A stretch of 32,000 nt of DNA from contig OY781039.1 of assembly GCA_963676105.1 (NCBI GenBank), positions 1,890,001 to 1,922,000 of the forward strand. The letters run 5' to 3'. A program made the translations under genes and the position numbers. Positions 5,432 through 24,283 of this stretch are shown here, piece after piece (position 1 is the stretch's first letter; each line of letters begins with the position of its first letter). Origin of the DNA: Erysipelotrichaceae bacterium. GTDB taxonomy: Bacteria; Bacillota_I; Bacilli_A; Erysipelotrichales; Erysipelotrichaceae. Below the pieces are notes generated by a model that was given only the letters and a program-made list of their open reading frames with translations, did no database searches and was not told the origin of the DNA.

Positions 5432-5460
5432 TGTAAAGTTATGAAAATTTATGAAAACGC

Positions 5461-5488
5461 TTGCATTTTGTATTCATAGGTCTACAAT
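5461..5488 (+). promoter_or_regulatory. Candidate sigma-A promoter for the leader/ankyrin/EF-G-paralog transcript
   Basis: TTGCAT (5461-5466), a 16-nt spacer, then TACAAT (5483-5488). Confidence 0.4.
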
Positions 5489-5511
5489 AGAATTAACAAG
5501 AATTTAGAAAG

Positions 5512-5648
5512 AAGGTCCACATTATGTTAGGGGTCAAAAAGACAAACGATCCACTTCATTTAGCGCACCACGAGGATGCGCTCTTAACTTGTGGAATTCT
5601 GAATTTAAATCGTATTTTAAAGATGGGCTAGGTATGTCCATCTTTTTT
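5512..5648 (+). promoter_or_regulatory. Candidate leader-peptide attenuator: 35-codon ORF (5524-5631), internal hairpin, and an intrinsic terminator
   Basis: AAGG (5512-5515) sits 8 nt before ATG 5524. The ORF reads MLGVKKTNDPLHLAHHEDALLTCGILNLNRILKMG and stops at TAG 5629-5631. Hairpin 1 is AGCGCA 5562-5567 / TGCGCT 5577-5582. The terminator stem is 5619-5628 / 5636-5645 (8 Watson-Crick pairs, 1 G-U, 1 C-G), with the T-run ending at 5648. The leader stop codon lies in the terminator loop. Confidence 0.4.
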
Positions 5649-5682
5649 GTACGCTGTTTGAGAAATGAGGAGGAAAACACAA

Positions 5683-6351
5683 ATGGATCAAACAAATCAA
5701 CTATTCTGGGATGCTGCAGCAGCAGGTGATTTCCAGAAAGTCGTCGCAGCTGTTAATCAAGGTGCTGACGTTAATATTAGAAATGGTGAAGCTAGAACAG
5801 CCTTAATGCGTAGTTCTAAGCGTGGCCATGAAAAAGTCGTACGTTATCTTTTAGATAAAGGTGCAGATGTTAATGCCCGTGATAATAATGGGAAAACAGC
5901 TCTGATGGGAGCCGCAAAAAAAGGACATACACTTATTGTTAAAATGTTCTTAGATATTGATGTGGATGTTAATGCACAAGATGTAAGAGGACGTACAGCA
6001 CTCATGCGTGCAAGTCTACTGGGACATGATGAAGTGGTTGATATGCTTGTATCAGCTGGAGCACAAGTAGATATAGCTGATGAAATGGGACGTACCGCAT
6101 TAATGGAAGCATGTAATGCGTTTAGATTTGAAGTGATTAAACATTTAGTAAGTGCAGAAGCAGATGTTAATGTACAAGATTCAAATGGCGTAACGGCGCT
6201 AATGAGAGCTGCTTATACTGGCTACTCACAAATGGTTGAGTATTTATTAGATCATAATGCAAATAAAGAACTTGTAGATGCAGACGGTAATAAAGCCATC
6301 CATTATGTAAGACAAGATTGTTTAGCGGAATTGAAACCGGTATTGAAGTGA
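5683..6351 (+). CDS. Ankyrin-repeat protein (about 6 ANK repeats)
   Basis: The unit G.TALM.A...GH..VV..L...GADVN.. recurs about every 33 aa, for example GEARTALMRSSKRGHEKVVRYLLDKGADVNARD, NGKTALMGAAKKGHTLIVKMFL, RGRTALMRASLLGHDEVVDMLVSAGAQV. I prefer the ATG at 5683 because the track start at 5665 (ATGAGGAGG) is itself the AGGAGG SD. Confidence 0.85.
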   Translation: MDQTNQLFWDAAAAGDFQKVVAAVNQGADVNIRNGEARTALMRSSKRGHEKVVRYLLDKGADVNARDNNGKTALMGAAKKGHTLIVKMFLDIDVDVNAQDVRGRTALMRASLLGHDEVVDMLVSAGAQVDIADEMGRTALMEACNAFRFEVIKHLVSAEADVNVQDSNGVTALMRAAYTGYSQMVEYLLDHNANKELVDADGNKAIHYVRQDCLAELKPVLK

Positions 6352-6361
6352 GGAATGATAG

Positions 6362-8443
6362 ATGAAAGATTATGCAGCACAAGATGTTAAAAATATTGTT
6401 TTATTAGGTCACTCAGGTAGTGGTAAAACAACCTTAGTTGAATCGATGTTACATTTTACCAATGCGTCTGATCGCTTAGGTAAAAATGCCGATGGGACCT
6501 CTGTTTTAGATTATGATCCAGAAGAAGCAAAAAGAGGCGTTTCAGTCTTTACCAGTTTAGCGCCAGTAGAATGGAAAGATCATAAACTTAATTTTATTGA
6601 TACACCAGGGTATTTTGATTATGCGCAAGAAATGGTCGCAGGTTTAGCGGTTGCAGATAATGCGCTCGTTGTAGTTGATGGTCGTGATGGAGTACAAACA
6701 GGTACCATTCGCAGTTTTAAAGCCGCCAATGAAAAGAAATATCCTATCTTATTCTTTATTAATAAACTCGATGAAGAAAATTCTTCTTTCGAAAAAGTAT
6801 TAAGTCAACTTAGAGAACAATTTGGTAAATCAGTTATTCCATTTGAAATGCCAATTATGGAAAATGGGGCAATAATTGGCTCTATTAATATCCTTAAAGA
6901 TAAAGCATGGTATATAAGTGATCCTGAAACTCCACAAGATGTCCCAGAAAATTTAAAAGCACATGTCGATGAGTATGTTGAAATGATTAAAGAAGCTGTC
7001 GCGATGGAGAGCGAAGAGCTGATGGAAAAATACTTTAGTGGCGAAGAATTTACAGATACAGAACTTCTACAAGGTGTCCGTATTGGAGTAAGAAATGGTG
7101 ATATTCATCCGGTTTACTCTGGTAGTGCAACTCAGTCAGTAGGTATTCGTCGTTTAATGGATTTAATTAGTGCTTACTTCCCATCCTATGGAGAACTAGG
7201 AGTTATTAAGGCTAAAAACTTAAAGGGAGAAGAAGTTGAACTTCATACCAATGAAGAAGAAATTTTCTCAGCTCAAATATACAAAACTATTGTAGATCCG
7301 TTTGTTGGTCGAATTTCGCTCTTAAAAGTGATGAGTGGAACATTGACATCTGATACACATGTCTATAATTCGAATAAAGAAGAATCTGAAAAAATCTCTC
7401 AAATCTTTATTATTAAAGGTAAACACCAAATCGCAGTTGGAAAACTCTTTACTGGCGATTTAGGTGCAATTGTTAAACTTCAACATTCACATACTGGTGA
7501 TACCCTAGCAACTAAAGAAAATCCAGTTATTTTCGAAAAAATTGAGTTCCCAGTTGGAAATCTAGCGATGAGTATTTGGCCAGTTTCCAAAAATGATGAA
7601 GATAAAATGAGTGGTGCCCTACAACGTATTGAAGAGGAAGATCCATCATGTACTGTTGTGAAGAATGCTGAAACCAATGAAGAAATTGTTTATGGTTTAG
7701 GTGATCAACACTTAGATGTCATTGTGTCTCGCTTGAAAAATAAATATAAAGTAGAGGTTGAACTGAAAGAACCTCGTATCCCTTATCGAGAAACCATTCG
7801 TGGAACAGTTACCGTTGAAGGAAAACACAAAAAACAATCAGGTGGCGCAGGTCAATTTGGGGATGTCTTTATTACTTTTGAACCTTGTGATGATGAAGAC
7901 ATGGTCTTTGAAGAAAAAATCTTCGGTGGTGCAGTTCCTCGCCAATACTTCCCGGCTGTTGAAGCAGGACTACGAGAAGCAATGGTTAAAGGGGTATTAG
8001 CTGGCTATAAAGTAGTCGGTGTTAAATGTACTTTGGTTGATGGGAAATATCATGATGTTGATTCAAAAGAAATTGCCTTCAAAATGGCTGCGAAGAAAGC
8101 GTATCGTGCAGGGATGCCTCAAGCAAAACCAGTTCTTCTTGAACCGATTGTAAAAGCTGAAGTTACAGTTCCAGAAGAATTTACGGGAACAGTTATTGGA
8201 GATTTCAATAAACGACGAGGTATCATCCTTGGTATGGACTTCAACGACGATGGTGATCAAGTAGTCTCTGCAGAAGTGCCTATGAGTGAAATGATGCGTT
8301 ATTCAACAGAACTTAGATCATTTACTCAAGGGGTTGGAATCTATACACAAGTCTTTGAAAGATACGATGTATGTCCACCAAATATTGCCGATCGAGTGGT
8401 TAAAGAATCTAATCACAAAGTTGACGACGAAGACGACGATTAA
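6362..8443 (+). CDS. EF-G paralog (EFG-II-like translational GTPase) with Tyr in place of the catalytic His
   Basis: It has EF-G length (693 aa) and domain order. G1 is GHSGSGKTT, switch I is EEAKRGVS, G3 is DTPGYFDY (normally DTPGHxDF), G4 is NKLD, G5 is SGSA. Domain IV has DGKYHDVDSKEIAFKMA. The C-terminal tail VDDEDDD is acidic. The gene starts 10 nt after the ankyrin gene stop. Confidence 0.9.
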   Translation: MKDYAAQDVKNIVLLGHSGSGKTTLVESMLHFTNASDRLGKNADGTSVLDYDPEEAKRGVSVFTSLAPVEWKDHKLNFIDTPGYFDYAQEMVAGLAVADNALVVVDGRDGVQTGTIRSFKAANEKKYPILFFINKLDEENSSFEKVLSQLREQFGKSVIPFEMPIMENGAIIGSINILKDKAWYISDPETPQDVPENLKAHVDEYVEMIKEAVAMESEELMEKYFSGEEFTDTELLQGVRIGVRNGDIHPVYSGSATQSVGIRRLMDLISAYFPSYGELGVIKAKNLKGEEVELHTNEEEIFSAQIYKTIVDPFVGRISLLKVMSGTLTSDTHVYNSNKEESEKISQIFIIKGKHQIAVGKLFTGDLGAIVKLQHSHTGDTLATKENPVIFEKIEFPVGNLAMSIWPVSKNDEDKMSGALQRIEEEDPSCTVVKNAETNEEIVYGLGDQHLDVIVSRLKNKYKVEVELKEPRIPYRETIRGTVTVEGKHKKQSGGAGQFGDVFITFEPCDDEDMVFEEKIFGGAVPRQYFPAVEAGLREAMVKGVLAGYKVVGVKCTLVDGKYHDVDSKEIAFKMAAKKAYRAGMPQAKPVLLEPIVKAEVTVPEEFTGTVIGDFNKRRGIILGMDFNDDGDQVVSAEVPMSEMMRYSTELRSFTQGVGIYTQVFERYDVCPPNIADRVVKESNHKVDDEDDD

Positions 8444-8451
8444 AATGAGAG

Positions 8452-8482
8452 AGCATGTATCACACATACATGCTTTTTTTTG
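8452..8482 (+). terminator. Intrinsic terminator after the EF-G paralog
   Basis: Nine-bp stem AGCATGTAT (8452-8460) / ATACATGCT (8466-8474), loop CACAC, followed by a T-run of at least 8. Confidence 0.8.
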
Positions 8483-8513
8483 TATAATAAGAGACATAGA
8501 CGGTGAGAAAATT

Positions 8514-8993
8514 ATGAATTTAGATAACAAAACAACATGTATTGAACTCTTAGAAAAAAGAGGTGTAAGTGTAGAAGACATTGCCCATTGTGCGATGCAT
8601 CTACAAAAGAAATATCATCCTGAGATTACCTTAGAAGAAAGTATAGAAATTGCCTACAGTGTTATTGAAAAGCGTGAAGTGCAACATGCGATACTAACCG
8701 GTATTCAACTTGATATCTTAGCTGATTCTAATCACGAAATGGTTGGTAATTTAAAAGAAATCTTGAAAACTGACGAAGGCTTATATGGGATAGATGAAGT
8801 GTTAGCCTATGGTATCTGTAATCTTTATGGATCCATCGCCTTAACCAACTATGGCTTTATTGATAAAGAAAAACCATGTATTATTGGTAAACTAAATGAT
8901 GATAAAAATCAGTGCAATTGTTTCTTGGATGACATCGTTGGAGCGATTGCGGCAGCGGTTGCGTCCAAAATCGCCCATACACATAATAGTTAG
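8514..8993 (+). CDS. PgpA-family protein (YutG-like, phosphatidylglycerophosphatase A family)
   Basis: From ATG 8514 the sequence is MNLDNKTTCIELLEKRGVSVEDIAHCAMHLQKKYHPEITLEESIEIAYSVIEKREVQHAILTGIQLD...DEGLYGIDEVLAYGICNLYGSIALTNYGFIDKEKP...FLDDIVGAIAAAVASKIAH. This closely parallels my recollection of B. subtilis YutG. The track start at 8334 lies inside the preceding gene and upstream of its terminator. Confidence 0.75.
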   Translation: MNLDNKTTCIELLEKRGVSVEDIAHCAMHLQKKYHPEITLEESIEIAYSVIEKREVQHAILTGIQLDILADSNHEMVGNLKEILKTDEGLYGIDEVLAYGICNLYGSIALTNYGFIDKEKPCIIGKLNDDKNQCNCFLDDIVGAIAAAVASKIAHTHNS

Positions 8994-9007: not shown

Positions 9008-9448
9008 ATGAAAAAATTAATCACAAGCATTTTACTTATTAGTCTTTTATTAACAGGTTGTGCTGAAAAAGGAATTACAGAAGTAAAACCAAGTGCGATA
9101 TTGAACCAATTTGAACAGGAAGAAAGTTTTATTGTTTATTTAGGTTTATCTTATTGTTCAGCATGTAAGATTTTTAGATCTGTGATTGAGTCATCAATGA
9201 AAACAGAAGATTTTGATGTGCTTTATTTAGAATATGATGTCTTAATGGAAAACGATGCCGATGCAGCTGATTTAGAAACATTGATAGCTGATTATTTAGA
9301 TCAATATGAAACTTTTGCCTACACATTCCCTGTTTTATATGTTGTAGATAGAGGTGAAATCATTGATCAATTCTCACTTCAACAAACGGATACAGAAACG
9401 GAGTTTATTGATCGTTTAAAAGCCGATGGAGTCTTATTGAGTGAATAA
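9008..9448 (+). CDS. Thioredoxin-fold lipoprotein (CxxC)
   Basis: It has a signal peptide with lipobox LLLTGC, and a CSAC motif within FIVYLGLSYCSACKIF, which is the thioredoxin-like beta-strand/CxxC/helix context. An AGGAGA SD is present. Confidence 0.6.
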   Translation: MKKLITSILLISLLLTGCAEKGITEVKPSAILNQFEQEESFIVYLGLSYCSACKIFRSVIESSMKTEDFDVLYLEYDVLMENDADAADLETLIADYLDQYETFAYTFPVLYVVDRGEIIDQFSLQQTDTETEFIDRLKADGVLLSE

Positions 9449-10232
9449 GAAACAAGAAGTTTCAATTATCACAAGACAGACATTAAGAGATGGATTTTTA
9501 GCATGCGGACTTCATAAAGGCGATATCGTCGAGGTGCATGCTTCTTTAAAAGCAATTGGTTATTTAGTGGGTGGGCCACAAATCGTTATTGATGCATTAG
9601 TAGATGTGATTGGAATCGAAGGGACAATTGTCATGGCTGCACAAGCTTATGATAATTCTGAACCAGCGTTCTTTGAAAACCCTCCAATTCCTGTGCAAGA
9701 TTATGATCGCTTTAGAAAAAGTCGACCAGCATATCGAGGCAAACTTGAAAATATTCGACCAATGGGTGAATTAGCAAGAGCACTACTCAGTCGCCCAAAT
9801 AGTTATTTATCAGATCATCCGCGCGATGCCTTTATCGCTATGGGTAAATACGCTAAATGGATCACACAAAATCATCCTTTATCATCTGAGCTAGGACCAG
9901 ATTCTCCTTTAGGTAAAATGTTGGAGTTAAAATCTAAAATTTTATTAATTGGGGTAGATTATGACAATGCCACAGGCATGCATTTAGGTGAACACTTAAG
10001 TGGTAAACGAGAACATATTCTACAAGGTGCACGTATTGTGATTCATGGCGAAAGTCATTGGGTTAAGTTTAATGCGACAGATTATGATTCGAATGTATTT
10101 GTAGAACCTGGAAAAAGACTAGAAGAAAAAGGGCTTGTAAAATTTGGACAAATTGGCTCCGCTAAGGTAAAGTTATATACATTAGAAGCTGCGACAGAAG
10201 TTACGAAAGCTTACTTTGAGGAGGTCTTATGA
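9441..10232 (+). CDS. Aminoglycoside N3-acetyltransferase family protein (AAC(3)/YokD-like, Antibiotic_NAT)
   Basis: Family-typical N-terminus: ..LRDGFLACGLHKGDIVEVHASLKAIGYLVGGPQIVIDALVDVIGIEGTIVMAAQ. Later motifs are LLIGVDYDNATGMHLGEH. The start is GTG and overlaps the upstream stop by 8 nt. Confidence 0.75.
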   Translation: MNKKQEVSIITRQTLRDGFLACGLHKGDIVEVHASLKAIGYLVGGPQIVIDALVDVIGIEGTIVMAAQAYDNSEPAFFENPPIPVQDYDRFRKSRPAYRGKLENIRPMGELARALLSRPNSYLSDHPRDAFIAMGKYAKWITQNHPLSSELGPDSPLGKMLELKSKILLIGVDYDNATGMHLGEHLSGKREHILQGARIVIHGESHWVKFNATDYDSNVFVEPGKRLEEKGLVKFGQIGSAKVKLYTLEAATEVTKAYFEEVL

Positions 10233-10690
10233 AGGGTGTATTAAGAGTTATTAAAAGTTATGTAGAAGTAGAAGTTAAAGATGGAGCAGTTGTTGGCTGC
10301 GAATTTTGTGATGCGAGTGATGTGGATTTAAAAGATGATCCACTACTTATCGAATTACAAAAACAGTTTGACGAATATACGCATTTTACACGACATGCGT
10401 TCGATGTTCCACTTCATGTTGAAGGAACAGAGTTTCAACAAAAGGTATGGGATGCACTATGTACGATCCCATTTGGTGAAGTGAGAACTTATAAACAAAT
10501 TGCGGAACAAATCGGTGAACCAAAAGCGTTTAGAGCAGTTGGTGGTGCCTGTAATAAAAATCCAATTGGTGTCATTATCCCATGTCATAGAGTTGTGGGT
10601 TCAAATGGTAAACTCACAGGCTACGCGGGTGGCTTAGAACTTAAACAATTCTTACTCAATCACGAAGATACGATTAACAAGCATGCATAA
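10229..10690 (+). CDS. ogt: Methylated-DNA--protein-cysteine methyltransferase
   Basis: The active-site motif IPCHRVVG is preceded by TEFQQKVWDALCTIPFGEVRTYKQIAEQIG.PKAFRAVGGACNKNP, which is canonical for the MGMT/Ogt C-terminal domain. The start overlaps the upstream gene as ATGA. Confidence 0.9.
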   Translation: MKGVLRVIKSYVEVEVKDGAVVGCEFCDASDVDLKDDPLLIELQKQFDEYTHFTRHAFDVPLHVEGTEFQQKVWDALCTIPFGEVRTYKQIAEQIGEPKAFRAVGGACNKNPIGVIIPCHRVVGSNGKLTGYAGGLELKQFLLNHEDTINKHA

Positions 10691-12407: not shown

Positions 12408-12444
12408 AAACTTATCCTAGCACAATTATGTTAAAATAAATACC

Positions 12445-12520
12445 GTGAACAGGGGTGCCCTTAGCGGCTGAGAAAAACCCTCATCACCTGATCTAGTTAA
12501 GACTAGCGTAGGGAGCTCAC
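12445..12520 (+). promoter_or_regulatory. TPP (THI-box) riboswitch aptamer
   Basis: The conserved elements are present in the correct order: AGGGGTGCCC...GGCTGAGA...ACCC...CACCTGATCTAGTTAAGACTAGCGTAGGGA. The P1 stem is GTGA..TCAC. An extended -10 TGtTAAAAT lies upstream at 12429-12437, and a thiamine transporter gene lies downstream. Confidence 0.85.
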
Positions 12521-12528
12521 TTGCTCTT

Positions 12529-12560
12529 TACCTTCTTACGTTTACGGGAGGTATTTTTTT
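12529..12560 (+). terminator. TPP riboswitch expression platform: a hairpin that sequesters the SD and is followed by a U-run
   Basis: TACCTTC (12529-12535) pairs with GGAGGTA (12547-12553, one G-U pair). This buries the thiT SD GGGAGG (12546-12551). Seven T's (12554-12560) run directly into ATG 12561. Confidence 0.6.
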
Positions 12561-13070
12561 ATGAAAAGATCGGTTGTTTTTGAAAGTGTACAAATGGCAT
12601 TGTACGCAGCATTGTTTATCGTGTTAGATTATTTATCTAACCAAATTGGCATCTTTAGAATGCCGCAAGGTGGAACGATTGGTTTAAGTACTTTAGTTCT
12701 ACTGATTGCTTCATATCAATTAGGATGGAAAAAAGGTGTAGTAGTTGCTTTAGTGACCATTCCACTACAAGGAATGTTTGCGCCGTATTATTCAGTTGAT
12801 ATTCTAGACTTCTTCTTTGAGTATATCTTAGCTTTTGGTGTTTATGGTTTGGCAAGTCTATTTCCAAATATCAAAAAACCATTACCTATTTTCACCGGTG
12901 TTATTATTGTGAATCTTGTAAGGTTAGCGATTCACACATATGCAGGCGTCGTTTATTGGGGAGCAACATGGTCAGGTTCATTTACTTATAATGCGTGGTA
13001 TATGATACCAACATTAATTGTTGGAGTCTTACTAGTTCCACCAATTTTAAAAAGACTACCAAAATATTAA
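12561..13070 (+). CDS. thiT: Thiamine transporter ThiT (ECF S-component)
   Basis: It is a 169-aa six-helix membrane protein with the MPQGGTIGLS motif typical of ThiT/YuaJ, and it sits directly behind a TPP riboswitch. Confidence 0.8.
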   Translation: MKRSVVFESVQMALYAALFIVLDYLSNQIGIFRMPQGGTIGLSTLVLLIASYQLGWKKGVVVALVTIPLQGMFAPYYSVDILDFFFEYILAFGVYGLASLFPNIKKPLPIFTGVIIVNLVRLAIHTYAGVVYWGATWSGSFTYNAWYMIPTLIVGVLLVPPILKRLPKY

Positions 13071-13936: not shown

Positions 13937-15457
<1,521 letters not shown>

Positions 15458-15740
15458 AAGGAGAAAGAATTTTTTTAAACAAAAACCTAACGTTGGTTTC
15501 CTATTTAGTTTTGAGAGTACAGCTCTCAGAAGTGGTTCTTTGAAAACCGAATAACAGATATGAAAAGACATGATCTTTCTGAATAGTTGAAAAATTATTA
15601 GAAAAATTAAGATTTTTACATTACGAGAAACAAAAAACAATTTTTGAAAACAGAATTGTTTTAGTTAAAAACAAAACAGTAATCAAGCAATCAAAGTATA
15701 TTATTTATACGTGAACACACATATAAAAAAATTTAAACGT

Positions 15741-18636
<2,896 letters not shown>

Positions 18637-18735
18637 CCCATAACTAATATAAAAACATCAATTATTTTCAGAAAGAGAATAGCCCTTTAATCAAATATAT
18701 CTATTATTCGGTTTTGAGAGAATCAACTCTCATGA

Positions 18736-18849
18736 TCTGGTGACGATAGCGTAGTGGTCACACCTGTTCCCATCCCGAACACAGAAGTTAAGCACTACAG
18801 CGGTGACAATAGCATGGCTTGCCCATGTGAAGATAACACGTTGCCGGTT
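18736..18849 (+). rRNA. rrf: 5S rRNA, operon 1
   Basis: TCTGGTGACGATAGCGTAGTGGTCACACCTGTTCCCATCCCGAACACAGAAGTTAAGC... ends in ...CGTTGCCGG, which closes helix I. Confidence 0.9.
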
Positions 18850-19370: not shown

Positions 19371-20891
<1,521 letters not shown>

Positions 20892-21174
20892 AAGGAGAAA
20901 GAATTTTTTTAAACAAAAACCTAACGTTGGTTTCCTATTTAGTTTTGAGAGTACAGCTCTCAGAAGTGGTTCTTTGAAAACCGAATAACAGATATGAAAA
21001 GACATGATCTTTCTGAATAGTTGAAAAATTATTAGAAAAATTAAGATTTTTACATTACGAGAAACAAAAAACAATTTTTGAAAACAGAATTGTTTTAGTT
21101 AAAAACAAAACAGTAATCAAGCAATCAAAGTATATTATTTATACGTGAACACACATATAAAAAAATTTAAACGT

Positions 21175-24070
<2,896 letters not shown>

Positions 24071-24169
24071 CCCATAACTAATATAAAAACATCAATTATT
24101 TTCAGAAAGAGAATAGCCCTTTAATCAAATATATCTATTATTCGGTTTTGAGAGAATCAACTCTCATGA

Positions 24170-24283
24170 TCTGGTGACGATAGCGTAGTGGTCACACCTG
24201 TTCCCATCCCGAACACAGAAGTTAAGCACTACAGCGGTGACAATAGCATGGCTTGCCCATGTGAAGATAACACGTTGCCGGTT
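24170..24283 (+). rRNA. rrf: 5S rRNA, operon 2
   Basis: Same sequence as operon 1 shifted by 5434 bp. Confidence 0.9.

What the first reader, a model, noticed from the sequence alone, without database searches (positions are those of the whole stretch)
5683..8443. Ankyrin-repeat protein encoded in a tight two-gene unit with an EF-G paralog
A 222-aa protein made almost entirely of ANK repeats is uncommon in free-living Bacillota. It ends 10 nt before the start of a 693-aa EF-G paralog. There is no intervening terminator, each gene has its own SD, and a single strong terminator follows at 8452-8482. ANK repeats are protein-protein interaction scaffolds. An ANK partner for a translational GTPase could be a chaperone, inhibitor or ribosome-targeting adaptor. 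I know of no described system like this. Together with the leader attenuator, it resembles a stress- or antibiotic-responsive ribosome-associated module.
Basis: partly seen in the sequence, partly recalled or inferred. Interest (0 to 1): 0.7.

Follow-up and report, generated by a model that had tools for sequence, protein, structure and literature searches.

The report
Ankyrin partner gene for EF-G2
One group of gut and environmental bacteria (Erysipelotrichia) always encodes a small ankyrin-repeat protein directly in front of a spare, probably GTPase-deficient copy of the ribosome-moving factor EF-G, which suggests an undescribed helper protein for this alternative translation factor.

Summary
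Window 5683-6351 encodes a 222-aa ankyrin-repeat (ANK) protein. Ten nucleotides later, 6362-8443 encodes a 693-aa EF-G paralog of the EFG II/EF-G2 type. Its catalytic switch-II histidine is replaced by tyrosine (DTPGY).

The pairing is not a local accident:
- Searching from the EF-G paralog, 31 of 31 evaluable species genomes in one monophyletic clade (named members are Erysipelotrichia) have the ANK gene directly upstream. None of 46 relatives outside the clade do.
- Searching from ANK, 79 of 79 metagenome loci have EF-G2 7-24 nt downstream (83 nt in one).
- Flanking genes are not conserved.

ANK evolves about as slowly as EF-G2 (dN/dS about 0.1). Its concave groove carries 11 invariant or nearly invariant basic residues.

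The unit also has a conserved control region. A cre (CcpA) box overlaps the promoter. A short uORF ends at or inside the 5' half of an intrinsic terminator.

Best reading: an operon predicted to be relieved by carbon starvation and gated by translation. It makes a GTPase-deficient alternative elongation factor together with a dedicated ANK partner.

I found no paper describing this pairing. Antibiotic responsiveness is not supported.

The parts
5452..5465 (+). cre-like box TGAAAACGCTTGCA (predicted CcpA operator), overlapping the -35 box
   Evidence: It has 1 mismatch to the cre consensus TGWAANCGNTNWCA (the consensus is used in PMC5263246 and PMC10269683). On its own it is not significant in the window (4 matches vs 2.9 expected). 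It is conserved, however: 49 of 91 distinct orthologous upstream regions carry a match with at most 1 mismatch, against 1.75 of 91 in shuffles and 0 of 46 ANK-less EF-G2 loci.
5461..5488 (+). Inferred promoter: -35 TTGCAT (5461-5466), 16-nt spacer, -10 TACAAT (5483-5488)
   Evidence: Read from the sequence. The CTTGCA...TACAAT arrangement recurs in orthologous leaders. It was not reported by the consensus scan because the -35 box matches only 3 of 6 positions, so the promoter is inferred from conservation only.
5507..5631 (+). Leader uORF: Shine-Dalgarno GAAAGAAGG (5507-5515), ATG at 5524, 35 codons, stop TAG at 5629-5631 in the loop of the leader terminator
   Evidence: A Shine-Dalgarno-preceded uORF of 13-41 codons ends between -4 and +12 nt of the 5' foot of the terminator stem in 24 of 33 genome loci and 42 of 57 distinct metagenome leaders. 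This is seen in 0 of 46 ANK-less loci. The peptide sequence is poorly conserved.
5619..5649 (+). Leader intrinsic terminator (attenuator): AAAGATGGGC / loop TAGGTAT / GTCCATCTTT followed by a T-run
   Evidence: It folds in the minimum-free-energy and centroid structures and scores -11.5 kcal/mol. A terminator is present in 30 of 33 genome leaders and 49 of 57 metagenome leaders. The RNAalifold consensus has 8 pairs, and 6 of them show compensatory changes. In footprint-masked folding it is lost only when a ribosome's P site is in the last 1-4 uORF codons, with rare exceptions (66 leaders).
5655..5661 (+). Conserved TGTTTGA motif between the attenuator and the ANK Shine-Dalgarno (function unknown)
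   Evidence: It is a conserved block in the 47-leader alignment A3. TTTGA lies within 45 nt of the ANK ATG in 24 of 57 metagenome leaders.
5667..6351 (+). ANK gene: Shine-Dalgarno GAGGAGG (5667-5673), CDS 5683-6351, 222 aa, seven helix-pair ankyrin units, cytoplasmic (no signal peptide visible)
   Evidence: - Fold: Pfam ANK families; model with pLDDT 73.6.
- Conservation: 33 gap-free orthologues at 50-86% identity; dN/dS 0.12 against the closest relative.
- Binding face: concave-groove positions 5, 10, 13 and 14 of the repeats have mean conservation 0.85, against 0.67 on the convex face. R38, R43, K46, R47, K71, K79, K80, R104, R109, R137 and R175 are invariant or nearly so.
6350..8443 (+). 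EF-G2-type paralog: Shine-Dalgarno GAGGA (6350-6354) overlapping the ANK stop codon, CDS 6362-8443, 693 aa
   Evidence: - Architecture: five EF-G domains, collinear with T. thermophilus EF-G without large indels.
- Family scores: NF009381 873 bits; below the TIGR00484 cutoff.
- G-domain motifs: G1 GHSGSGKT, G2 RGVSV, switch II DTPGY.
- Domain IV tip: GGAGQFG and YHDVDS are retained.
- Selection: dN/dS 0.07.
8452..8482 (+). Operon terminator: AGCATGTAT / CACAC / ATACATGCT followed by T8
   Evidence: The next gene (PgpA, ATG at 8514) is preceded by a promoter-like site at 8459-8488.

Best explanation
This is a self-contained operon of the order cre-promoter, uORF/terminator attenuator, ANK, EF-G2, terminator. 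It is specific to one bacterial clade (Erysipelotrichia).

EF-G2 is an alternative elongation factor G that has lost the catalytic histidine. It is therefore expected to bind the ribosome and translocate with little or no GTP hydrolysis, like the EF-G2 proteins of Bacteroides and Mycobacterium.

ANK is its dedicated, co-translated partner. I propose that ANK's invariant basic concave groove binds the strongly acidic EF-G2, most likely on the G domain. By doing so it would control when EF-G2 engages or leaves the ribosome.

Expression is predicted to be repressed by CcpA at the cre box when good sugars are present. It is further gated by an attenuator that lets RNA polymerase pass only if a ribosome occupies the last codons of the uORF as the terminator is transcribed.

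Shown here:
- the gene pair and its strict two-way linkage;
- purifying selection on both genes;
- the conserved ANK groove;
- loss of the catalytic histidine;
- conservation of the cre box, uORF and terminator, and their geometry.

Inferred:
- co-transcription and translational coupling;
- GTPase deficiency;
- CcpA control;
- physical ANK-EF-G2 binding and its consequence.
For: Linkage:
- From the EF-G2 side, a scan of one genome per species found ANK immediately upstream (gap -1 to 28 nt) in all 31 evaluable loci of one clade and in 0 of 46 loci outside it.
- The ANK+ EF-G2 sequences are monophyletic in a neighbour-joining tree.
- From the ANK side, 79 of 79 metagenome loci with downstream DNA have EF-G2 (DTPGY or DTPGF) 7-24 nt after ANK, and 83 nt in one.
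- Flanking genes are shared by at most 23 of 113 loci.
- A generic ANK protein with 38% identity sits in an unrelated context.

Selection:
- dN/dS is 0.12 for ANK and 0.07 for EF-G2, with similar dN.
- The ANK alignment is essentially gap-free.
- The usual ANK target-binding positions are more conserved than the framework, and they form a basic stripe.
- EF-G2 has a net charge of about -23. Six of the 7 positions that are conserved acidic only in the ANK+ clade lie in the G domain.

EF-G2 biology:
- The H-to-Y change is the one seen in M. smegmatis EF-G2. The H88Y mutation nearly abolishes the GTPase of MsmEF-G1 (bioRxiv 10.64898/2026.05.25.727771).
- B. thetaiotaomicron EF-G2 has Ser at this position and enables GTP-independent translation (PMC10294740).
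- E. coli H92A EF-G stays on the ribosome for about 20 s (PMC12775393), which gives a rationale for a turnover or gating partner.

Regulation:
- cre enrichment is 49/91 against 1.75/91 in shuffles and 0/46 in ANK-less loci.
- The uORF-terminator architecture is seen in 66 of 90 leaders and in 0 of 46 controls.
- Folding shows occlusion only, with no antiterminator.
- Bacteroides fusA2 is induced 238-fold by carbon limitation and silenced by glucose.
Against: - No direct evidence of binding.
- EF-G2 relatives in Clostridia, Bacteroides and Mycobacterium function or persist without ANK.
- EF-G2 of the ANK+ clade has no insertion or clustered clade-specific patch. The 13 clade-specific residues are scattered.
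- ANK was gained once, so the many loci are not independent events.
- A conserved basic groove would suit rRNA or another acidic protein equally well.
- T. thermophilus EF-G2 is reported to keep GTPase activity (cited), so histidine loss does not always mean a dead GTPase.
- The window's cre box alone is not significant.
- The promoter is inferred, not scored.
- The direction of attenuator control is unknown.
Confidence: 0.55

Rival explanations
1. ANK works in the same pathway but not by binding EF-G2. Its basic groove would bind the ribosome (rRNA, or the acidic L7/L12 stalk) or another translation component. This would prepare or mark ribosomes for EF-G2, or protect idle ribosomes during starvation.
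For: - The ANK groove has 11 conserved Arg/Lys residues, although the whole protein is slightly acidic (pI about 6.3).
- No ANK-specific patch or insertion is seen on EF-G2.
- Co-expression alone would explain the linkage.
Against: - A strict gene order with a 7-24 nt gap, and the EF-G2 Shine-Dalgarno overlapping the ANK stop codon, is more typical of subunits or partners made in fixed proportion.
- The conserved acidic residues gained in the ANK+ clade lie mostly in the EF-G2 G domain (6 of 7).
- ANK never occurs without EF-G2 in 79 of 79 loci.
Confidence: 0.2
2. The pair is an antibiotic-resistance or ribosome-protection module induced by drug-stalled ribosomes. EF-G2 would displace a drug as Tet(M)/Tet(O) do, or ANK would shield EF-G from fusidic acid as FusB does.
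For: - A leader uORF plus terminator is the classic layout of inducible resistance genes.
- Some uORFs carry V-F-x-V motifs that resemble, from memory, the IFVI arrest motif of ErmCL.
- An AAC(3)-family acetyltransferase gene lies 1 kb downstream in the window.
Against: - The Tet ribosomal-protection model scores 305 bits against a cutoff of 775.
- The family is chromosomal, vertically inherited and clade-wide, and is not on mobile elements.
- A ribosome stalled early or mid-uORF does not open the terminator in 66 leaders.
- The window's own uORF lacks the V-F-x-V motif.
- The AAC(3) neighbour is present in only 2 of 113 loci.
- The conserved promoter element is a cre box.
Confidence: 0.08
3. 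The adjacency is inherited synteny with no functional coupling. ANK would have an unrelated cellular target and merely share a transcript with EF-G2.
For: ANK has a single evolutionary origin in one clade. ANK repeats are generic interaction modules.
Against: - Surrounding genes have been reshuffled while the pair, its spacing and its leader have been kept across lineages whose proteins have diverged to about 50% identity.
- There is no case of either gene alone within the clade.
- Both genes are under comparably strong purifying selection.
Confidence: 0.07

Closest known systems
Bacteroides thetaiotaomicron EF-G2 (fusA2, BT2167; PDB 7uvp/8dmf)
   Same: - It is a second EF-G with the full five-domain architecture that has lost the switch-II histidine (DCPGS there, DTPGY here) and has Ser in G2.
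- It supports GTP-independent translation, is induced by carbon limitation and is silenced by glucose (PMC10294740).
- The present operon carries a conserved catabolite-responsive box.
   Different: - The present protein scores 584 bits against a cutoff of 1000 on the Bacteroides EF-G2 model, and is closer in sequence to canonical EF-G.
- Its regulator would be CcpA/cre rather than Cur (BT4338).
- No ANK partner or uORF attenuator is described for Bacteroides fusA2 in the papers read.
Mycobacterium smegmatis EF-G2 (PDB 9k0z/9k10)
   Same: - It has the same His-to-Tyr replacement of the catalytic residue.
- It has minimal ribosome-dependent GTPase activity, is non-essential and is described as a stress-specific factor (bioRxiv 10.64898/2026.05.25.727771).
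   Different: - It is only distantly related (413 bits, matched in two stretches).
- Its domain IV loops are reported as displaced, whereas the domain IV tip motifs are retained here.
- No accessory protein is described for it.
FusB/FusC-type proteins of Staphylococcus (small proteins that bind EF-G and promote its release from the ribosome; from my own knowledge)
   Same: It is the precedent for a small dedicated bacterial protein that binds EF-G and changes its residence on the ribosome. This is the role proposed here for ANK.
   Different: - The fold is unrelated. The ANK protein matches only ankyrin families.
- FusB acts on the canonical EF-G, is often horizontally acquired and confers fusidic-acid resistance.
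- Binding by ANK has not been demonstrated.
Coupling-dependent leader attenuators (E. coli pyrBI and pyrE leaders; from my own knowledge), and leader-peptide attenuators of resistance genes (erm, vmlR, lmo0919)
   Same: A promoter-proximal translated uORF lies ahead of an intrinsic terminator, and the position of the leading ribosome decides read-through. As in pyrBI and pyrE, the ribosome itself must cover the terminator's 5' arm.
   Different: - No alternative antiterminator or anti-antiterminator pairing exists, unlike the trp, erm and vmlR types.
- No match to any Rfam family was found.
- The stop codon is placed exactly at the stem foot (TTT TAA GATGG), and the stem sequence itself is conserved.
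- The sensed signal is unknown.
Clostridia sub-subgroup of EFG II (Margus, Remm and Tenson 2011, PMC3150367)
   Same: It shares the G2 pattern RxxS(I/V), the G1 motif GHxxxGKT, conserved G3-G5 motifs and low divergence from EFG I. The relatives without ANK fetched here are mostly Clostridia.
   Different: The Erysipelotrichia branch has acquired ANK, the uORF attenuator and the cre box, all of which are absent from the 46 other loci.

Membership tests
EFG II / EF-G2 subfamily of elongation factor G | Full EF-G architecture: G domain with G' insert, and domains II, III, IV and V | tested here: met
   Pfam finds GTP_EFTU, EF-G_D2, EFG_III, EFG_IV and EFG_C, all above their cutoffs. The protein is collinear with T. 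thermophilus EF-G over residues 3-681.
EFG II / EF-G2 subfamily of elongation factor G | G2 motif RGITI relaxed, with Ser in place of Thr (RxxSI in the Clostridia subgroup); G1 begins with Gly rather than Ala | tested here: met
   The protein has RGVSV and GHSGSGKT. The criteria come from PMC3150367 and PMC12172202.
EFG II / EF-G2 subfamily of elongation factor G | Loss of the catalytic switch-II histidine, as in characterised EF-G2 proteins | tested here: met
   The window protein has DTPGY. Of the 80 fetched relatives, 75 read D[TAS]PG[Y/F/D/L/S] and none showed His; in the other 5 the motif was not found by the scan. MsmEF-G2 has Tyr and B. thetaiotaomicron EF-G2 has Ser.
EFG II / EF-G2 subfamily of elongation factor G | A second copy beside a canonical fusA, located outside the str operon | not testable with these tools
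   The gene is not next to rpsL, rpsG or tuf in the window. The rest of the genome could not be searched. Margus 2011 states that a single EF-G is always of type EFG I.
EFG II / EF-G2 subfamily of elongation factor G | Little or no ribosome-stimulated GTP hydrolysis | not testable with these tools
   This is inferred from the H-to-Y change. T. thermophilus EF-G2 is reported to be active, so it is not certain.
NCBIfam equivalogs 'EF-G2' (NF009377) and 'EFG2_Bacteroid' (NF058620) | Score above the curated cutoff | tested here: not met
   The scores are 579 against a cutoff of 890, and 584 against 1000. The best passing model is the EF-G subfamily model NF009381 (873 against 583).
Canonical EF-G (TIGR00484 equivalog) | Score above the curated cutoff; catalytic histidine present | tested here: not met
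   The score is 628.1 against a cutoff of 659.4, and the histidine is replaced by Tyr.
Tet(M)/Tet(O)-type ribosomal protection proteins | Score above the NF012153 cutoff | tested here: not met
   The score is 305 against a cutoff of 775.
Ankyrin-repeat proteins | Tandem 33-residue helix-turn-helix repeats matching the Pfam ANK models | tested here: met
   Ank_2 scores 151.8 bits and Ank scores 136.2 bits with 5 stretches. The model has seven helix pairs. The 33-residue register was confirmed.
FusB-type EF-G-binding proteins | Sequence or fold relationship to FusB/FusC | tested here: not met
   The Pfam and NCBIfam scans of the ANK protein return only ankyrin-type matches. The resemblance is functional and hypothetical only.
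Leader-peptide transcription attenuators | Shine-Dalgarno-preceded uORF between the promoter and an intrinsic terminator that precedes the first structural gene | tested here: met
   In the window the uORF is at 5524-5631 and the terminator at 5619-5649. The layout is conserved in 66 of 90 leaders and absent from 46 controls.
Leader-peptide transcription attenuators | Mutually exclusive antiterminator structure (trp, erm or vmlR type) | tested here: not met
   No conserved alternative pairing was found. The terminator is lost only by direct ribosome occlusion.
Leader-peptide transcription attenuators | Regulated read-through in vivo | not testable with these tools
   No expression data are available.
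CcpA/cre regulon (carbon catabolite control in Bacillota) | A cre consensus at or near the promoter | tested here: met
   The window site at 5452-5465 has 1 mismatch. Matches are found in 49 of 91 orthologous regions, against 1.75 expected and 0 of 46 controls.
CcpA/cre regulon (carbon catabolite control in Bacillota) | CcpA binding and glucose-dependent repression | not testable with these tools
   This is inferred only.
Anti-phage defence systems with ANK proteins (MzaA, PDC-M72, PADLOC 'Ankyrin') | Full-length match and the associated system genes | tested here: not met
   The matches cover only repeat segments of much longer profiles. The neighbours are ordinary chromosomal genes.

The most novel reading that the evidence does not exclude
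ANK is a new kind of trans-acting turnover or gating factor for a translational GTPase that no longer hydrolyses GTP. By binding the G domain of EF-G2, it would do in trans what GTP hydrolysis does for canonical EF-G: it would time factor release from, or admission to, the ribosome. This would make hydrolysis-free translocation multi-turnover during carbon starvation. The operon would be tuned by a previously undescribed ribosome-occlusion attenuator that reports how closely ribosomes follow RNA polymerase.
Probability: 0.2. Interest if true: 0.85.

Novelty: new variant of a known kind. Interest (0 to 1): 0.68.

Why it matters
EF-G2-type paralogs are widespread, but they have been characterised in only a few species. 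How a factor without GTPase activity cycles on and off the ribosome is an open mechanistic question.

A strictly co-inherited partner protein gives that question a handle. It can be tested with two purified proteins and ribosomes.

Erysipelotrichia are common gut bacteria. A starvation-linked alternative translation module in this group would parallel the colonisation role shown for Bacteroides EF-G2.

It would also be the first bacterial case I could find of an ankyrin-repeat protein dedicated to a translation factor.

The conserved uORF-at-terminator leader is a compact candidate for a new class of coupling-sensing attenuator.

Tried and rejected
- EF-G2 model: the model built from the 16-sequence alignment was poor (pLDDT 61). 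I therefore ran no fold search on it, because matches would be meaningless.
- ANK homologue searches: protein-database searches with ANK, as a single sequence and as a profile, were swamped by generic ankyrin proteins and returned almost no true orthologues. The DNA-level scans were used instead.
- Window proteins in the collections: the exact ANK protein of the window is not in the protein collection.
- Leader RNA: Rfam found nothing in the leader or in eight ANK-less loci. A search for a conserved antiterminator found none.
- Docking site on EF-G2: a search for a clade-specific insertion or patch gave 13 scattered residues. The only hint is a set of extra conserved acidic residues in the G domain.
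- Defence-system membership was rejected.
- Tet-like ribosomal protection was rejected.
- Alternative partner in ANK-less relatives: the ORFs upstream of EF-G2 in L030 and L031 look spurious, so there is no alternative partner gene there.
- Literature: six searches combining ankyrin with EF-G, paralog, Erysipelotrichaceae or Erysipelothrix found nothing relevant. Han et al. 2023 (EMBO J) is not held and was cited only through other papers.

Full report
**1. The observation**

- The ankyrin ORF runs from the ATG at 5683 to the TGA at 6349-6351 (222 aa). An upstream in-frame ATG at 5665 is not the start, because every orthologue begins MDQ(T)N at the position equivalent to 5683.
- Pfam assigns the protein almost entirely to ankyrin families (Ank_2 at 8e-45, Ank at 8e-41 with five stretches). 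A single-sequence AlphaFold2 model gives seven helix pairs (pLDDT 73.6).
- Ten nucleotides after the stop codon, the ATG at 6362 opens a 693-aa protein with all five EF-G domains. Its GAGGA Shine-Dalgarno (6350-6354) overlaps the ankyrin stop codon.
- No terminator-like site lies within the pair. One strong site follows it (stem 8452-8474 plus T8).

**2. What the GTPase is**

It is not the housekeeping EF-G.
- It falls below the TIGR00484 equivalog cutoff (628 vs 659 bits) and far below the Tet ribosomal-protection cutoff (305 vs 775). Its best passing model is the EF-G subfamily model NF009381 (873 bits).
- It carries the diagnostic marks of the EFG II/EF-G2 lineage defined by Margus et al.: G1 as GHxxxGKT and G2 as RGVSV, with Ser replacing Thr (PMC3150367; PMC12172202).
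- The catalytic histidine of switch II is tyrosine (DTPGY). Of the 80 relatives fetched from species genomes, 75 read D[TAS]PG[Y/F/D/L/S] and none showed histidine; in the other 5 the motif was not found by the scan.
- The same His-to-Tyr change is present in M. smegmatis EF-G2. When introduced into MsmEF-G1 (H88Y), it nearly abolishes ribosome-dependent GTPase activity (bioRxiv 10.64898/2026.05.25.727771).
- B. thetaiotaomicron EF-G2 has Ser at this position (PDB 7uvp alignment) and enables GTP-independent translation (PMC10294740).
- An E. coli H92A EF-G still translocates but stays on the ribosome for about 20 s (PMC12775393).
- The domain IV tip motifs are retained (GGAGQFG, YHDVDS). The protein is collinear with T. 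thermophilus EF-G, so it can probably still reach the A site.
- GTPase deficiency is an inference. T. thermophilus EF-G2 is reported to be active.

**3. Is ANK a conserved neighbour?**

From EF-G2:
- A scan of one genome per species with an alignment of EF-G2 relatives returned 80 loci.
- tblastn with the ANK protein found a full-length, collinear orthologue (50-70% identity) ending -1 to 28 nt before EF-G2 in 31 of them. These include Holdemania, Amedibacillus, Breznakia, Anaerorhabdus, Solobacterium, Faecalitalea, Absicoccus, Floccifex, Longicatena, Merdibacter and unnamed Erysipelotrichaceae, Erysipelotrichales and Erysipelotrichia.
- None was found in the 46 evaluable loci from Clostridia and other lineages. 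Three loci had too little upstream DNA to judge.
- In a neighbour-joining tree the ANK+ EF-G2 proteins form one clade with no ANK-less member inside. ANK was therefore gained once and has never been lost among the sampled descendants.

From ANK:
- A metagenome scan with the 33-sequence ANK alignment returned 80 loci (58-77% identity).
- All 79 with downstream DNA carry EF-G2 (DTPGY, or DTPGF in one) 7-24 nt after ANK (83 nt in one).

Controls:
- The genes that flank the pair in the window are found in at most 23 of 113 loci.
- A generic ANK protein of 38% identity lies in an unrelated context.
- Two orthologues returned by the protein search both sit in front of an EF-G2 gene.

**4. Selection on ANK**
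- The 33 orthologues align essentially without gaps, with a mean column identity of 71%.
- Against the closest relative, dN/dS is 0.12 for ANK and 0.07 for EF-G2. dN values are similar in more distant pairs.
- In the 33-residue repeat register, the positions that usually vary and contact targets in ankyrin proteins (5, 10, 13, 14) are the most conserved here. Their mean conservation is 0.85, against 0.77 for framework positions and 0.67 for the convex face.
- These positions include eleven invariant or nearly invariant basic residues (R38, R43, K46, R47, K71, K79, K80, R104, R109, R137, R175), although the whole protein is slightly acidic.
- EF-G2 of the ANK+ clade has a net charge near -23.
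- I found no insertion or clustered clade-specific patch on EF-G2. The 13 clade-specific positions are scattered.
- However, six of the seven positions that are conserved acidic only in the ANK+ clade lie in the G domain. This is a lead, not a result.

**5. The control region**

The leader belongs to the unit and is as conserved as the genes.

The attenuator:
- In the window, a Shine-Dalgarno-preceded 35-codon uORF (5524-5631) ends with its stop codon in the loop of an intrinsic terminator (5619-5649).
- A terminator lies within 90 nt of the ANK start in 30 of 33 genome loci and 49 of 57 distinct metagenome leaders.
- A uORF of 13-41 codons ends between -4 and +12 nt of the stem's 5' foot in 24 of 33 and 42 of 57 leaders. 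Most often the arrangement is TTT TAA GATGG, with the stop codon at the foot.
- The 46 ANK-less EF-G2 loci give 3 terminator-like sites and 0 uORF-terminator arrangements.
- The uORF peptides are poorly conserved. The terminator is the only consensus structure (8 pairs, 6 with compensatory changes).
- No conserved antiterminator exists.
- I folded 66 leaders with a ribosome footprint masked at successive codons. The terminator persists unless the P site is in the last 1-4 codons, with rare exceptions.
- The element is therefore a direct-occlusion attenuator. Read-through requires a ribosome at the end of the uORF while the terminator is being transcribed. The closest analogues I know are the E. 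coli pyrBI and pyrE leaders (own knowledge).
- The physiological signal that shifts this balance cannot be read from sequence.
- Rfam has no match.

The cre box:
- I also noticed that the sequence over the -35 box, TGAAAACGCTTGCA (5452-5465), fits the catabolite-responsive element consensus TGWAANCGNTNWCA with one mismatch.
- One such site is not significant in the window.
- However, 49 of 91 distinct orthologous upstream regions have one. It usually lies over the -35 or -10 box, or as a perfect palindrome further upstream. The expectation from shuffles is 1.75 of 91, and 0 of 46 ANK-less loci have one.
- This predicts CcpA-mediated glucose repression. It parallels the 238-fold carbon-limitation induction and glucose silencing of Bacteroides fusA2.

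**6. Interpretation**

The well-supported statement is that ANK and EF-G2 form an obligately linked, co-regulated and selectively maintained unit in one clade.

The step to 'ANK binds EF-G2 and controls its ribosome cycle' is inference. It rests on:
- operon architecture;
- equal evolutionary constraint on the two genes;
- a conserved charged binding face on ANK, opposite in charge to EF-G2;
- the known kinetic problem of histidine-less EF-G.

FusB-type proteins show that small EF-G-binding proteins that alter ribosome residence exist in bacteria (own knowledge). ANK is unrelated to them.

Alternatives:
- ANK may act on the ribosome instead of on EF-G2.
- A drug-resistance role is disfavoured by the Tet score, the vertical chromosomal inheritance, the attenuator geometry and the cre box.
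- Mere synteny is disfavoured by reshuffled flanks and the absence of single-gene cases.

**7. Novelty**

EF-G2 itself is a known kind. The ankyrin partner, the attenuator and the cre control were not found in any paper searched. They are also absent from the EF-G2 systems described in Bacteroides, Mycobacterium and Thermus in the papers read. I therefore rate this a new variant of a known kind, with a minority chance that ANK represents a new type of regulator of a translational GTPase.

**8. Limits**
- The organism was not identified. The protein hits indicate an Erysipelotrichia genome of about 1.96 Mb.
- The presence of a canonical fusA elsewhere in the genome could not be checked.
- The many loci descend from a single acquisition.
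- No expression or interaction data exist.

Noticed in passing
window 5452-5465 (and orthologous promoters in L001-L162): A catabolite-responsive element (cre, the CcpA operator) overlaps the -35 box of the operon promoter. It is conserved in 49 of 91 orthologous upstream regions, against 1.75 expected and 0 of 46 ANK-less loci. This predicts glucose repression of the ANK-EF-G2 operon.
   Followed up: yes
window 5655-5661; alignment A3: A conserved TGTTTGA motif lies 10-20 nt upstream of the ANK Shine-Dalgarno, between the leader terminator and the gene. Its role is unexplained.
   Followed up: no
window 5619-5649; leaders of L003-L162: The terminator arms are conserved in primary sequence (TTTTAAGATGG ... 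GTCCATCTTTTTT), not only in pairing, across species whose proteins are only 55-60% identical. The uORF most often ends TTT TAA exactly at the stem foot. This suggests sequence-specific recognition or a constraint from the stop-codon context.
   Followed up: partly
uORFs in L009, L010, L014, L017, L085, L124, L129, L135 and others: Many leader peptides share loose motifs: V-F-x-V(Q) near codons 7-11, L-F-G-G-V about 12 codons before the end, and a terminal Phe. The window's own uORF lacks the first motif. It is unclear whether the constraint acts on the peptide or on the RNA.
   Followed up: partly
window 6362-8443, residues D3, D8, D109, E144, E162, D232, E300: Seven positions are conserved acidic only in EF-G2 proteins that have an ANK neighbour, and six of them lie in the G domain. 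This is a possible docking surface for the basic groove of ANK.
   Followed up: partly
L006 (Holdemania filiformis DSM 12042), about 257 nt upstream of ANK: The conserved terminator TTTTAAGATGG...CCATCTTT is present, but it lies about 250 nt further from ANK than in other species. The leader there contains an extra segment.
   Followed up: no
L030 3535-4000; L031 1-580: The closest EF-G2 relatives without ANK have 450-650 nt of apparently ORF-free DNA upstream of EF-G2. It has no Rfam match and may be a different, undescribed leader.
   Followed up: partly
window 13937-18849 and 19371-24283: Two tandem rRNA operons (16S-23S-5S) have identical Rfam scores and lengths. They lie about 5.5 kb downstream of the EF-G2 operon on the same strand.
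   Followed up: no
window 12441-12531: A TPP riboswitch (65 bits, above the gathering score) lies immediately upstream of the ORF at 12561-13070.
   Followed up: no
window 9008-10690: A run of overlapping genes lies downstream of PgpA: an unassigned 146-aa protein with a lipoprotein-like N-terminus, an AAC(3)-family aminoglycoside N-acetyltransferase (9441-10232) and an MGMT-type methyltransferase (10229-10690). These are shared with only 1-3 of 113 related loci, so they are not part of the module.
   Followed up: partly
window 5683-6351: The exact ANK protein (222 or 228 aa) is absent from the 15-billion-sequence protein collection, although the adjacent EF-G2 is present. Profile searches also recover almost no orthologues. 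This family is easy to miss in protein-level resources because generic ankyrin repeats swamp the search.
   Followed up: partly
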